NCBI GenBank assembly: GCA_947500835.1 | Contig: CANMTQ010000010.1 | Location: 129,715-193,714 of the forward strand | Source: an uncultured Halomonas sp. | GTDB taxonomy: Bacteria; Pseudomonadota; Gammaproteobacteria; Pseudomonadales; Halomonadaceae | DNA: 64,000 nt | Reading direction: 5' to 3' | Part shown: in pieces, positions 36,180 through 52,028 of the stretch | Layout of the letters: each line of letters starts with the position of its first letter | Numbering within the stretch: the stretch's first letter is position 1 | The notes under the pieces: model-generated | The model's input: only the letters and a program-made list of their open reading frames with translations | What the model was told of the DNA's origin: nothing | Database searches by the model: none | Program-made: the position numbers and the translations under genes

Positions 36180-36947
36180 ATGCAACGCGAAGAATTCTTA
36201 CAGCAGTTATGGCTGGATTATATCCATATGCATCCGGAGCTGGGTGGCAAGTACTCTTGGGCCCAGAGCAAGGATGCCGAATACTTGGCCATACTTACGC
36301 TCAATATTGGCCCTTTTTGCGCCGATACGTTGCAACGATCGCTGACACGTTTTGGCTATCGTTCTACTGGTCGCTTTGCGATCGTCGATCGCGGCTTACT
36401 CGTCACCCTTCTTGCCCCACCTGACGATGGCGCCTGGCTGTTGCTAGGGGAGTTCCAGACCGGTTCTTTGATGCAACAGCCGCGTCGCCAATTACAGACC
36501 CTCGTCGATCAGGCCCAGCCTCGGGATCTTCGTGGTCAGAATCTTCTTTGTCGCGGACGTCCGTGGCCAATGCCGGATTGGACGACCTATGAAAATTTAA
36601 AATCAGAGCATCCATTAGCCGCGTGGCTCGCGATAATGGGCCCAAGATTGCATCATGTAGGGTTTGACTGCGAGCGTCTTGGCAGCGATTTGATTTCCCT
36701 TGACTACAGCATGCAGCAGGCGGGATTGCTCGGAAGCATCGACCCGCTACAAAATATTTTTCCCATATCACCGTTACTGCAATACCGATTCTACCCTGCC
36801 TGCGCTCAGCGCCTGCCATTTGCCCAAGGCGATGAGCATCGCGTCACCACCGGCGGCATTGCCCTGGTTCAGAAAAGCCTCGCAGGTACCCAGGAACGCG
36901 CGGCGGAGCTATTGCTACCTCATCACACTCGCTGTGAAATCGCCTGA
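36180..36947 (+). CDS. Divergent DUF1338 (HglS-like) family protein
   Basis: LW.DY, FGY...G, GRPW, Y..L..E...AAW pattern of DUF1338; several metal-ligand positions appear altered. Confidence 0.6.
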   Translation: MQREEFLQQLWLDYIHMHPELGGKYSWAQSKDAEYLAILTLNIGPFCADTLQRSLTRFGYRSTGRFAIVDRGLLVTLLAPPDDGAWLLLGEFQTGSLMQQPRRQLQTLVDQAQPRDLRGQNLLCRGRPWPMPDWTTYENLKSEHPLAAWLAIMGPRLHHVGFDCERLGSDLISLDYSMQQAGLLGSIDPLQNIFPISPLLQYRFYPACAQRLPFAQGDEHRVTTGGIALVQKSLAGTQERAAELLLPHHTRCEIA

Positions 36948-37008: not shown

Positions 37009-37043
37009 TTATACACAAAAGCTGTGGACAAGACTGTGCAAGA
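37009..37043. promoter_or_regulatory. Cluster of three DnaA boxes (DARS-like geometry)
   Basis: TTATACACA (consensus, forward) - 5 bp - TGTGGACAA (reverse, 1 mismatch) - 3 bp - TGTGCAAGA (reverse, 1 mismatch), in an intergenic region. Confidence 0.65.
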
Positions 37044-37286
37044 GCGTTGCATAGGGGAGTGTAATGACGGTTATTGCCTGCCTAGGTGCCGACGGTCATT
37101 TTTTCACCACTCCTCCTTGCATGATGCATGCCCTATCGAACGTCTAAACAACGACTTACAGTTGTCGTGATAGGCTATTGCTAGATCACCTTGAAAGGAC
37201 TCTCTGCGCGCAGAATACTAGCTTCAAGAAGCTGGCATGGCGTGCAGTTCAAGACAACGACCAGGTCAAGAAAAGGAGGGAGCGAT

Positions 37287-39236
37287 ATGTCGCAACCACT
37301 CTGGCAGCCTTCTCGAGCACAAATCGAAGCGACTCAGATGCATGCCTTGATGCAGCGCATCAATGATAAGTACGGCGCTTCCCTCAAGGACTACAGCGAT
37401 TTGCATGCCTGGAGCATCGACAATCTGGAAGCCTTCTGGACGCTGGTGTGGGAGGATGGCGACGTGGTGGCCCAGCGCCGCGGCGAAAGCGTACTGGCGC
37501 GCCCGGACGCCATGCCGGGAGCACGCTGGTTTCCCGAAGCGCGTCTGAATTTTGCGGCCAACTTGCTCAAGCGCAAGGATGATCATCCGGCTCTGATTGC
37601 CTGCGATGAACGCGGGCGTCGTCGGACATTGAGCTACGCCGAACTCTACGTCCAGGTCGCCAAACTGGCCCATGCCCTGAAAGCTAGTGGCGTCACCGAA
37701 GGCGACCGGGTTGCCGGGTTCGTACCCAACAGCGAACACGCCATCATCGGTATGCTGGCGGCGGCCAGTATTGGTGCAGTCTGGTCATCCTGCTCACCGG
37801 ATTTCGGCTTCAGCGGCGTGCTCGATCGCTTTGGCCAGATTCAACCCAAGGTACTTCTCGCAACGGACGGCTATACCTGGAACGGCAAGCCCATCGATAC
37901 GCGGGAGCGCATCGGCCAGATCAGCGACGCCATCGAGTCCCTTGTGCAAGTCGTGGTCTTCCCGTTTCTCGAAGATGCACCTGACATCAGCGCCATCGAC
38001 AAGGCAGTGGCCTGGCAGGAATACCTCGACAACGACGCCATCGAGATCGAGTTCGAACAGGAACCCTTCGATCATCCGCTTTACATCGTCTACTCCTCAG
38101 GTACGACCGGGGCTCCCAAATGCATCATTCACTCCGCGGGCGGCACCTTGTTGCAACATCTCAAGGAGCATCGCCTGCATACGGATTTGCGTCAGGATGA
38201 TGTGCTGTTCTACTACACGACCTGCGGCTGGATGATGTGGAACTGGCTCGTCTCTGGCCTTGCCTGCGGCGCGACTCTGGTATTGTTCGATGGCTCGCCT
38301 TTTTCTCCGAATCCGGACGTGCTCTGGAAACTCACCGAGCAGGAAGGCATCACGGTGTTTGGCACTAGCGCCAAGTATATTGCCGCCTGTGAAAAGCACG
38401 GACTCAAGCCAGGCAAACAGCATGATCTGACATCACTGCGCGCGGTACTATCCACCGGCTCGGCCCTTGCACACGAGTCCTTCGACTATGTCTATCGGGA
38501 CATCAAGGAGGATTTACTGCTGGCCTCGATCTCCGGTGGCACCGACATCGTCTCCTGCTTTGCCTTGGGCTGCCCGATTCGCCCTGTGTATCGTGGTCAA
38601 CTACAGTGTCGTGGCTTGGGCATGGCGGTGGATGTGCTCGATGACGATGGCACCCCGCTGCGTGAAGAAAAAGGCGAGCTGGTATGCACGCGCCCCTTTC
38701 CTTCGATGCCTATCGGATTCTGGAACGATCCTGAAGGCGAGCGCTACATGGAGGCCTATTTTGACGACTTCCCCGGCATCTGGGCCCACGGAGACTATGC
38801 AGAGATCACTGCCGAAGACGGTCTGATCATTCATGGCCGCTCCGACGCGGTGCTCAATCCTGGCGGCATTCGTATCGGCACTGCGGAAATCTATCGTCAG
38901 GTAGAGAAGGTCGAAGGCGTACTGGAATCGCTGTGTATCGGCCAGGAATGGTACGACGACGTGCGGGTAGTACTGTTCGTCATTCTGCGTGAAGGGATGA
39001 CCCTGGATGACGAGTTGCGCGACGAGATCAAGCGCACCGTTCGCGCCAATACCAGCCCTCGTCACGTGCCGGCGAAGATCATCCAGGTCGAGGACATTCC
39101 CCGCACCCTATCCGGCAAGATCGTCGAACTTGCGGTTCGCAACGTGGTACATGGCCAACCGGTAAAGAACCAAGATGCCCTGGCCAATCCCGAAGCATTA
39201 AAGTTTTACCAGGATCTACCCGATCTACAGAAGTAA
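37287..39236 (+). CDS. Acetoacetate--CoA ligase
   Basis: LWQPS, WFPEARLNFA.NLL, YSSGTTGAPKCI, TTCGWMMWNW, SGGTDI, GRSDAVLNPGG.RIGT. Confidence 0.95.
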   Translation: MSQPLWQPSRAQIEATQMHALMQRINDKYGASLKDYSDLHAWSIDNLEAFWTLVWEDGDVVAQRRGESVLARPDAMPGARWFPEARLNFAANLLKRKDDHPALIACDERGRRRTLSYAELYVQVAKLAHALKASGVTEGDRVAGFVPNSEHAIIGMLAAASIGAVWSSCSPDFGFSGVLDRFGQIQPKVLLATDGYTWNGKPIDTRERIGQISDAIESLVQVVVFPFLEDAPDISAIDKAVAWQEYLDNDAIEIEFEQEPFDHPLYIVYSSGTTGAPKCIIHSAGGTLLQHLKEHRLHTDLRQDDVLFYYTTCGWMMWNWLVSGLACGATLVLFDGSPFSPNPDVLWKLTEQEGITVFGTSAKYIAACEKHGLKPGKQHDLTSLRAVLSTGSALAHESFDYVYRDIKEDLLLASISGGTDIVSCFALGCPIRPVYRGQLQCRGLGMAVDVLDDDGTPLREEKGELVCTRPFPSMPIGFWNDPEGERYMEAYFDDFPGIWAHGDYAEITAEDGLIIHGRSDAVLNPGGIRIGTAEIYRQVEKVEGVLESLCIGQEWYDDVRVVLFVILREGMTLDDELRDEIKRTVRANTSPRHVPAKIIQVEDIPRTLSGKIVELAVRNVVHGQPVKNQDALANPEALKFYQDLPDLQK

Positions 39237-51707: not shown

Positions 51708-52028
51708 TCAAGCATCCGTATCCATGAGCGCAGGCTGACCCGCATAATCCTCGACTCGGGCCTTGAGCTTCTGACCTGGCCGAAACGTCACGACGCGGCG
51801 CGCCGAAATAGGGATCTCTTCGCCGGTTTTCGGGTTTCGCCCAGGACGCTGACCTTTATCGCGTAAATCGAAATTGCCGAAACCGGATAGCTTGACCTGT
51901 TCGTTTTCGCGCAGGCAGCCACGTATTTCCTCGAAGAAAGCTTCTACCATCGTCTTGGCTTCACGCTTCGAGAATCCCAGCTCACCATGCAGATGTTCTG
52001 CCAGTTCCGCCTTGGTCAACGCCCCCAT
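51708..52028 (-). CDS. ihfA: Integration host factor alpha
   Basis: [40 protein letters not shown]; follows pheT. Confidence 0.97.

What the first reader, a model, noticed from the sequence alone, without database searches (positions are those of the whole stretch)
37009..37043. DARS-like DnaA-box triplet in the intergenic region before the acetoacetate-CoA ligase gene
Seen in sequence: TTATACACA-AAAGC-TGTGGACAA-GAC-TGTGCAAGA. This is one consensus DnaA box (TTWTNCACA) forward, then two reverse boxes with one mismatch each, spaced 5 bp and 3 bp. Established knowledge: the E. coli DnaA-reactivating sequences DARS1/2 have a three-box core with box I opposite boxes II and III. From memory (needs verification), the DARS1 core upstream of E. 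coli uvrB reads TTATCCACT-5bp-TGTGGATAA-3bp-TGTGTATTA, which has the same orientations and spacers. Inference: this is a candidate ADP-DnaA reactivation site in a non-enteric lineage. It is not oriC, because no dnaA/gidA/mnmG or DUE is nearby, and the flanking genes have no obvious reason for DnaA control.
Basis: partly seen in the sequence, partly recalled or inferred. Interest (0 to 1): 0.72.

Follow-up and report, generated by a model that had tools for sequence, protein, structure and literature searches.

The report
DARS-type DnaA box triplet, Halomonadaceae
This 35-bp non-coding site has the same three-box layout as the E. coli DARS sequences that recharge the replication initiator DnaA, it is conserved across the Halomonadaceae whatever genes flank it, and it is probably a replication-timing control site in a lineage where none has been described.

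Summary
Window 37009-37043 reads TTATACACA-AAAGC-TGTGGACAA-GAC-TGTGCAAGA.

The layout is not chance. A 35-bp pattern for it, with up to 3 mismatches, finds only DARS1 and DARS2 in E. coli K-12. It finds five intergenic sites (up to 4 mismatches) in this 4.0-Mb Halomonadaceae genome, against none in random models.

This copy follows a DUF1338 gene in 72 of 80 named Halomonadaceae species. The downstream neighbour varies: acetoacetate-CoA ligase, an acyltransferase, or a convergent CoA-transferase. Conservation forms a sharp island exactly on the three boxes.

The triplet is half of a composite element. A 15-mer fitting the Fis consensus lies 50-51 bp after box III at every such site in this genome, in the family, and in most sites sampled from 20 other families. 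In this copy it is GGTCATTTTTTCACC (37094-37108), with one mismatch.

Fis, IHF and Hda are encoded. The main caveat is DnaA residue 208. It is Gln in E. coli, where DARS activity needs it, but Ala here and in most Gammaproteobacteria.

Verdict: a real, conserved DARS-type DnaA site and a new member of a known kind. The recharging function is inferred, not shown.

The parts
36180..36947 (+). Upstream neighbour: a 255-aa DUF1338/VOC-family gene (2-oxoadipate dioxygenase/decarboxylase-like by source names). It is the constant left neighbour of this element across the Halomonadaceae.
   Evidence: ORF. No Pfam or NCBIfam hit. Homologue names. Synteny.
37009..37017 (+). DnaA box I, TTATACACA: consensus, opposite in orientation to boxes II and III.
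   Evidence: Mean information 1.60 bit per position over 72 distinct sequences (71 named species plus the window).
37018..37022 (.). 5-bp spacer AAAGC between boxes I and II, the same length as in DARS1 and DARS2.
   Evidence: The length is invariant in all 72 loci that carry the triplet.
37023..37031 (-). DnaA box II, TGTGGACAA on the + strand (TTGTCCACA on the - strand): 1 mismatch. It is TGTGGATAA in most of the family.
   Evidence: Mean information 1.87 bit.
37032..37034 (.). 3-bp spacer GAC between boxes II and III.
37035..37043 (-). DnaA box III, TGTGCAAGA: 1 mismatch. Only TGTGCA is conserved across the family.
37094..37108 (.). Fis-consensus-like 15-mer GGTCATTTTTTCACC, starting 50 bp after box III. 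It has one mismatch (position 12, R to C) to GNNYANNNNNTRNNC.
   Evidence: The same offset holds a perfect match at 4 of the 5 own sites, 15/16 class A loci, 19/20 class C/D loci and 13/20 sites from other families. Upstream control windows of the same size hold 0 perfect matches in those four sets.
37152..37168 (.). Inverted repeat ACGAC-N7-GTCGT inside a block conserved only in relatives that carry acsA. It is probably an operator of acsA and not part of the DnaA element.
   Evidence: Read; function is inferred.
37191..37219 (+). Promoter-like site TTGAAA-17-AATACT for acsA, about 150 bp downstream of the triplet.
   Evidence: a consensus match only.
37287..39236 (+). Downstream neighbour: acetoacetate-CoA ligase gene. 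It is not a constant neighbour of the element.
   Evidence: NF002937, 989.8 bits.

Best explanation
The site is a chromosomal DnaA-assembly element of the DARS type. Shown: three DnaA boxes are laid out exactly as in the E. coli DARS core. Box I faces box II across 5 bp, and box III follows box II in tandem after 3 bp. A Fis-consensus-like 15-mer follows 50 bp further on. The element is one of five paralogous copies in this genome and is kept at this locus across the Halomonadaceae. Inferred by analogy with E. coli DARS1/DARS2: ADP-DnaA, produced here by Hda, binds box II. It recruits further protomers to box I (head-to-head) and box III (head-to-tail). The head-to-head pair loosens its nucleotide pocket and releases ADP. 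Apo-DnaA then leaves and rebinds ATP, raising initiation potential before the next round of replication. Fis bound 50 bp away may stimulate this, as it does at DARS2. Because this copy lacks an IHF site and has weakened box II and Fis motifs, it would be a weaker, DARS1-like auxiliary copy beside the fuller copies such as the gltA-tRNA-gltX site.
For: Geometry is identical to DARS1 and DARS2 as read from MG1655. Positive control: the pattern at up to 3 mismatches hits only DARS1 and DARS2 in the whole K-12 chromosome, and the reversed pattern hits nothing. Five sites occur in the own genome against 0 expected, and all are intergenic. Head-to-head pairs are enriched only at 5-bp spacing: 3 pairs at up to 1 mismatch, against 0-1 at each other spacing from 0 to 15. 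Three of the 6 double boxes with 3-bp spacing carry box I at exactly 5 bp. 72 of 80 named Halomonadaceae loci carry the triplet downstream of DUF1338, on the same strand and with invariant spacer lengths. Information content is 1.4-1.9 bit per position on the boxes against 0.16 in the left flank. Neighbours differ: acsA, an acyltransferase, a convergent CoA-transferase, a divergent MFS gene, or lactonase/mnmC in another genus. The paralogous class A copy lies between convergent 3' ends, gltA and tRNA-Glu, so no promoter role fits there. A Fis-like motif sits at +50/51 at all copies. An IHF consensus is present at class A (16/16) and at sites from other families (19/20). The genome encodes Fis, IhfA, IhfB and Hda. 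DnaA is 70% identical to E. coli DnaA, with L290, R285, F239 and K243 kept. The geometry is present in 81/81 family genomes, in 92/97 genera of the order, and in 94/121 sampled genomes of the class, each of a different family. The reversed-pattern control gave 0 in all three scans.
Against: No functional data exist. DnaA has Ala at the position of E. coli Gln208. The Q208A mutant is impaired in DARS1- and DARS2-dependent ADP release and is insensitive to DARS2 oversupply (PMC6868365). However, Ala is the common state: all 27 DnaAs of the order in which the motif could be read, and 22/26 such families of the class. In this copy box II is off consensus, the Fis-like motif has a C at position 12, and no IHF consensus is nearby. 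The element is missing in 8 of 80 species and in some genomes of the same genus, so it is dispensable. Its distance from dnaA is not conserved between genera: about 98% of a replichore in two genera and 65-72% in another. There is no synteny with uvrB or mutH.
Confidence: 0.55

Rival explanations
1. It is a conserved DnaA-binding site with a different effect on DnaA. It could be a titration sink, or a datA-like site that promotes hydrolysis of DnaA-bound ATP, rather than nucleotide exchange.
For: All the evidence for DnaA binding and conservation applies equally. DnaA lacks Gln208, the residue E. coli needs for DARS-dependent ADP release. Tandem 'double boxes' with 2-3 bp spacing are the general high-affinity DnaA unit in E. 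coli, including at datA (PMC11317965). IHF sites accompany the paralogous copies, as at datA.
Against: The opposed box I at 5 bp is the feature that separates DARS from the other DnaA sites of E. coli, and it is strictly conserved here. In E. coli the full pattern matches neither datA nor any regulon site. Ala208 is the majority state of the class, so it says little about this lineage in particular.
Confidence: 0.2
2. It is a DnaA operator that couples transcription of a neighbouring gene (acsA, the DUF1338 gene, or an unannotated small RNA) to the replication cycle.
For: DnaA regulates transcription from double boxes in E. coli, and DARS1 itself overlaps the uvrB control region. In this window the site lies upstream of acsA, and in strain M20 between divergent MFS and acsA genes.
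Against: The site is about 150 bp upstream of the only promoter-like match. In most species it sits 4-17 bp after the DUF1338 stop codon; in Billgrantia lactosivorans, the one such locus whose next gene was identified, that gene is a convergent CoA-transferase. The downstream gene changes between clades while the element stays. The paralogous class A copy lies between convergent genes. No Rfam family matches. No conserved RNA structure was found.
Confidence: 0.12
3. This particular copy is a decaying, no longer functional paralogue of the fuller DARS-type modules elsewhere in the genome.
For: Box II is TGTGGACAA, TGTGGGCAA or TGTGAACAA in the window's clade, against TGTGGATAA elsewhere. The Fis-like motif is off consensus and there is no IHF site. 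The element has been lost in 8/80 species.
Against: The boxes are a sharp island of conservation over 72 distinct sequences (71 named species plus the window) spanning many genera. The variant TTGTCCACA is itself the usual box I of class A copies in the family. Spacer lengths never vary.
Confidence: 0.08
4. It is a chance similarity, or a binding site for a protein other than DnaA.
For: CACA-N5-TGTG is a simple palindrome that another dimeric regulator could in principle read.
Against: 0 matches are expected per genome, and 0 were seen with the reversed pattern in every genome searched. The conserved positions follow the DnaA box consensus, and in box I the N position varies far more than its neighbours (0.6 bit against 2.0).
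Confidence: 0.03

Closest known systems
E. coli DARS1 (bioD-uvrB spacer)
   Same: Three boxes with identical orientation and 9-5-9-3-9 spacing. It is a short core without an IHF site. Box III is weak.
   Different: There is no synteny with uvrB. Box II is perfect in DARS1 and off by one base here. This site has a Fis-consensus-like 15-mer exactly 50 bp after box III, which DARS1 lacks at that place. Host DnaA has Ala, not Gln, at position 208.
E. coli DARS2 (rppH-mutH spacer)
   Same: The core geometry is the same. DARS2 needs Fis and IHF sites beside the core. The paralogous copies here and in other families carry Fis-like and IHF-like consensus sites at fixed offsets.
   Different: In DARS2 the matches to the IHF consensus in its IHF-binding region start at +93 and +109 after the core by the same scan, and its essential Fis sites lie further out. 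Here the Fis-like site comes first (+50) and the IHF-like site second (+70 or +85). This copy has no IHF consensus site. There is no synteny with mutH.
E. coli datA
   Same: It is a non-coding DnaA box cluster outside oriC that modulates DnaA, and it contains a tandem double box.
   Different: datA has no opposed box at 5 bp, it depends on IHF, and it is not matched by the pattern in E. coli. It acts in the opposite direction, promoting ATP hydrolysis.
'Double DnaA box' regulon sites of E. coli (Stringer et al. 2024, PMC11317965)
   Same: Boxes II and III form such a double box with 3-bp spacing.
   Different: Those sites lack the opposed box I. Here box I at 5 bp is as conserved as box II.
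DARS-like sequences predicted in other bacteria (Fujimitsu et al. 2009, as cited in PMC6868365 and PMC6090056)
   Same: They are candidates defined by the same box spacing.
   Different: The example quoted in the held papers (V. cholerae) keeps the uvrB/mutH positions. No held paper mentions Halomonadaceae or Pseudomonadales. The 2009 paper itself could not be read.

Membership tests
DARS (DnaA-reactivating sequence) core | Three DnaA boxes, with box I in the opposite orientation to boxes II and III | tested here: met
   mismatches are 0, 1 and 1.
DARS (DnaA-reactivating sequence) core | Spacers of 5 bp (I-II) and 3 bp (II-III) | tested here: met
   Spacer lengths are invariant in all 72 loci that carry the triplet. 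In E. coli K-12 the pattern finds only DARS1 and DARS2.
DARS (DnaA-reactivating sequence) core | Non-coding chromosomal locus distinct from oriC | tested here: met
   The site is intergenic. dnaA and the origin-like box cluster are on contig C6.
DARS (DnaA-reactivating sequence) core | The DNA stimulates ADP release from ADP-DnaA and regeneration of ATP-DnaA | not testable with these tools
   This needs purified DnaA and a filter-retention assay.
DARS (DnaA-reactivating sequence) core | DnaA Gln208 at the head-to-head interface (required in E. coli; PMC6868365) | tested here: not met
   The residue is Ala here (HSERFVADMV), in all 27 DnaAs of the order in which the motif could be read, and in 22/26 such families of the class.
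DARS (DnaA-reactivating sequence) core | DnaA Leu290 (needed for DARS1 and DARS2), and the Arg285, Phe239 and Lys243 residues discussed with it | tested here: met
   All four are invariant in the alignment with E. coli DnaA.
DARS (DnaA-reactivating sequence) core | The host makes ADP-DnaA through Hda (RIDA), so a reactivation step is needed | tested here: met
   Hda matches TIGR03420 at 279.6 bits against a cut-off of 194.8.
DARS2-type regulated element | A Fis-binding site beside the core | tested here: inconclusive
   GGTCATTTTTTCACC at +50 has 1 mismatch to GNNYANNNNNTRNNC. The paralogues have perfect matches at the same offset. The Fis gene is present. Binding was not tested.
DARS2-type regulated element | An IHF-binding site beside the core | tested here: not met
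   Class B loci show no consistent IHF consensus (11/71 within 250 bp; 5/70 at +66 to +150). It is met in class A (16/16) and in other families (19/20).
DARS1/DARS2 orthologues by position | Location next to uvrB or mutH | tested here: not met
   The neighbours are regBA, a cysQ-like gene, grx, DUF1338 and acsA.
oriC | Many DnaA boxes with an AT-rich unwinding element, one per chromosome, usually near dnaA or mnmG | tested here: not met
   There are only 3 boxes plus one weak box in 800 bp. Five similar sites exist in the genome. An 8-box cluster lies next to dnaA.
datA | Tandem boxes plus an essential IHF site and a distal box, with no opposed box at 5 bp | tested here: not met
   An opposed box is present at 5 bp and there is no IHF consensus.

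The most novel reading that the evidence does not exclude
The triplet is one copy of an ancient, rigidly spaced DnaA-Fis(-IHF) module: the core, a Fis-type site 50-51 bp after box III, and an IHF-type site about 20-35 bp further on. The module is present in most Gammaproteobacteria, and Halomonadaceae keep 2-5 paralogous copies per genome. These modules recharge DnaA even though DnaA carries Ala instead of Gln208. That would mean the head-to-head interface defined in E. coli is a lineage-specific detail and that DARS-type control is a general feature of the class.
Probability: 0.4. Interest if true: 0.78.

Novelty: new member of a known kind. Interest (0 to 1): 0.6.

Why it matters
DARS-mediated reactivation of DnaA has been shown only in E. 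coli. In the papers held here it is described as conserved only among E. coli-related bacteria.

This site lies in a different order, with no positional homology to DARS1 or DARS2. It is conserved by sequence, spacing and locus, and it is tied to a Fis-like site at a fixed distance. It therefore gives a concrete, testable case for whether nucleotide-exchange control of initiation is general in Gammaproteobacteria.

It also sets up a sharp mechanistic question, because the host DnaA naturally carries the Q208A state that cripples DARS function in E. coli.

Halomonadaceae include genetically tractable industrial strains such as Halomonas bluephagenesis and Chromohalobacter salexigens. Copy-number and growth-rate engineering through these elements would be practical there.

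Tried and rejected
- **Terminator reading of the T-run at 37100-37104.** The hairpin is weak (-13.6 kcal/mol, z -1.35). RNAalifold over 9 relatives predicts no pairs. The scan tool did not call it. The T-run is better explained as the centre of the Fis-like 15-mer shared by all copies.
- **Small-RNA reading.** Rfam gives only a sub-threshold miRNA match.
- **Sigma-54 promoter reading of TGTGCA-N-TTGCA (37035-37051).** By eye the -24 element would be TG, not GG. The motif is absent in several clades. Rejected by inference only.
- **A fourth DnaA box after box III (CTGCAYA).** It is a poor match in either orientation. Left unexplained.
- **An IHF site near this copy.** None is consistent across loci.
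- **A conserved distance from the origin.** The distance varies between genera. The own genome is a draft, so it could not be measured.
- **Fujimitsu et al. 2009 (PMC2685538).** The paper is not held. The list of species for which DARS candidates were predicted is known only second-hand.
- **E. coli queries for Fis, IHF, DiaA, SeqA and Dam.** The Fis, IHF and Hda hits were confirmed with NCBIfam. The DiaA-like protein scores below the DiaA cut-off and above the phosphoheptose isomerase cut-off. The absence of SeqA and Dam rests on that tblastn search alone.

Full report
**Observation.** The bases are as reported: TTATACACA (37009-37017), AAAGC, TGTGGACAA (37023-31), GAC, TGTGCAAGA (37035-43).
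- This is one consensus DnaA box followed by two opposed boxes with one mismatch each. It lies in the 339-bp gap between a 255-aa ORF (36180-36947) and the acetoacetate-CoA ligase gene (37287-39236).
- A single consensus box is not unusual: 5 in the window against 2.7 expected.
- The 35-bp arrangement is unusual: 1 match at up to 3 mismatches against 0 in 100 shuffles.

**Comparison with E. coli.**
- DARS1, read from the MG1655 bioD-uvrB spacer, is TTATCCACT-ATTCC-TGTGGATAA-CCA-TGTGTATTA.
- DARS2, from the rppH-mutH spacer, is TTATTCACC-TTTTC-TGTGGATAG-AGT-TGTGAAGAA.
- As a positive control I scanned the whole K-12 chromosome with TTWTNCACA-N5-TGTGNAWAA-N3-TGTGNAWAA at up to 3 mismatches. It returned exactly two places, DARS1 and DARS2, and the reversed pattern returned none.
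- In the one organism where function is known, the pattern is therefore both sensitive and specific.

**The host genome.** The window is contig C10:129715-193714 of a 4.0-Mb, 58% GC draft.
- Five sites match at up to 4 mismatches, against none in 12 order-3 Markov genomes. All five are intergenic.
- Head-to-head box pairs are enriched only at 5-bp spacing.
- Of six tandem double boxes with 3-bp spacing, three carry an opposed box exactly 5 bp away.
- dnaA is on contig C6 with an 8-box cluster just upstream, the likely origin. A second 10-box cluster lies on C2. None of the five triplets is there.

**Conservation.** Homologues of the 255-aa protein are named DUF1338/VOC family in Halomonas, Modicisalibacter, Billgrantia and relatives. 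The organism is therefore a member of the Halomonadaceae, closest to Halomonas sp. PR-M31.
- In 80 named species, 72 carry the triplet (up to 5 mismatches; 62 at up to 3) downstream of this gene, on the same strand and with invariant spacer lengths.
- In 56 of them it starts within about 220 bp of the stop codon, mostly 4-17 bp.
- In 15 it lies about 1.5 kb away. In strain M20, the locus examined, an MFS transporter gene on the opposite strand fills that gap.
- The downstream neighbour varies. It is acsA in the Modicisalibacter/Litchfieldella group, an acyltransferase in Franzmannia and some Halomonas species, and a convergent CoA-transferase in Billgrantia lactosivorans. In another genus the flanks are a lactonase gene and mnmC.
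- Over 72 distinct sequences, information content per position is: left flank 0.16 bit, box I 1.60, 5-bp spacer 1.06, box II 1.87, 3-bp spacer 1.38, box III 1.40, and sequence beyond +12 0.30.

**A composite element.** I aligned the five own sites, 16 loci of the gltA-tRNA-gltX copy ('class A'), 20 loci of two further classes, and 20 sites from 20 other families of the order.
- A second conserved block appeared: a 15-mer such as GATCAATTTTTAACC that fits the Fis consensus GNNYANNNNNTRNNC quoted by Kasho et al. 2014.
- It starts 50-51 bp after box III.
- Perfect matches in that window: 4/5 own sites, 15/16 class A, 19/20 classes C/D, and 13/20 other families. The same-sized upstream control window holds 0 in each of those sets.
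- This copy has GGTCATTTTTTCACC (37094-37108), with one mismatch. Its class keeps that variant.
- An IHF consensus follows at +70 in class A (16/16) and at about +85 in other families (19/20), but not in this class.
- The genome encodes Fis, both IHF subunits and Hda.
- Class A lies between convergent 3' ends, which argues against a promoter role for the module.

**Taxonomic range.** The pattern is present in 81/81 family genomes (25/25 genera) and in 134/151 genomes of the order (92/97 genera) at up to 3 mismatches. It is present in 94/121 sampled genomes of the class, each of a different family, at up to 2 mismatches. The reversed control gave zero in every genome.

**Evidence against strict equivalence.** DnaA is 70% identical to E. 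coli DnaA and keeps L290, R285, F239 and K243. Position 208 is Ala, not Gln.
- In E. coli, Q208A impairs DARS1- and DARS2-dependent ADP release and abolishes the toxicity of DARS2 oversupply (PMC6868365).
- Ala is, however, the usual state: all 27 DnaAs of the order in which the motif could be read (30 loci fetched), and 22/26 such families of the class, with Gln in only 2.
- Either the interface differs outside the E. coli lineage, or these modules do something else with DnaA.
- The element is also lost in 8/80 species, and its distance from dnaA varies between genera.

**Interpretation.**
- Best reading (0.55): a DARS-type element that assembles ADP-DnaA and promotes nucleotide exchange. This copy would be a weaker, DARS1-like auxiliary beside fuller copies.
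- Titration or datA-like site (0.20).
- Transcriptional operator (0.12).
- Decaying copy (0.08).
- Chance or another protein (0.03).

**Literature.** The held papers describe DARS function only in E. coli. They describe conservation among E. coli-related bacteria, with DARS-like sequences in V. cholerae at the uvrB and mutH positions. Nothing was found on Halomonadaceae or Pseudomonadales.

**Earlier notes of this scan.** They report the same core/Fis(+86)/IHF(+120) module in other lineages. Their offsets, counted from the first base of the core, equal my +51 and +85. I had derived mine before reading them. They are not independent evidence.

**Not possible.** The 2009 paper is not held.

Noticed in passing
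G000 contig C2:386276-386724 (outside the window): A second strong DnaA box cluster lies far from dnaA: 10 boxes at up to 1 mismatch in 450 bp, 48% GC. It could be a datA-like locus or the true origin. The flanking genes were not examined.
   Followed up: no
G000 contig C6:254575-254951 (outside the window): Eight DnaA boxes (five perfect) lie in a 46% GC stretch immediately upstream of dnaA. This is the likely oriC/dnaA promoter region.
   Followed up: partly
G000 C4:217254-217288, C13:50827-50861, C5:124112-124146, C9:25385-25419 (outside the window): Four further DARS-geometry triplets lie in intergenic DNA: gltA/tRNA-Glu-tRNA-Ala-gltX, tpm/miaB, a cystine-binding protein gene/unknown gene, and downstream of ackA. 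Each has a perfect Fis-consensus 15-mer 50-51 bp after box III.
   Followed up: partly
window 37152-37168: The inverted repeat ACGAC-N7-GTCGT lies in a block (about 37130-37215) conserved only in relatives that have acsA downstream. It is probably the operator of an acsA regulator.
   Followed up: no
L049 3284-4663 (Halomonas sp. M20); offsets of about 1.5 kb also in L050-L058, L060, L064, L074, L076, L094: In strain M20 an MFS transporter gene on the opposite strand lies between the DUF1338 gene and the triplet. In all 15 such loci the triplet has stayed on the downstream (acsA) side, about 1.5 kb from the stop codon.
   Followed up: partly
L127 3507-4532 (Billgrantia lactosivorans) versus window 37287-39236: The gene after the element is an acetoacetate-CoA ligase in this clade and a convergent CoA-transferase in Billgrantia lactosivorans. 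Both enzyme types could activate acetoacetate, so different routes may occupy the same locus.
   Followed up: no
window 51741-52022 (- strand): The integration host factor alpha subunit gene (ihfA; TIGR00987, 159 bits) lies in the same window.
   Followed up: partly
DnaA, G000 C6:253049-254518 (= L006 973-2442, - strand): The position matching E. coli DnaA Gln208 is Ala in all 27 DnaAs of the order where the motif could be read, and in 22 of 26 such families of the class (Gln 2, Ser 1, Val 1). The residue reported as essential for DARS function in E. coli is therefore a minority state.
   Followed up: yes
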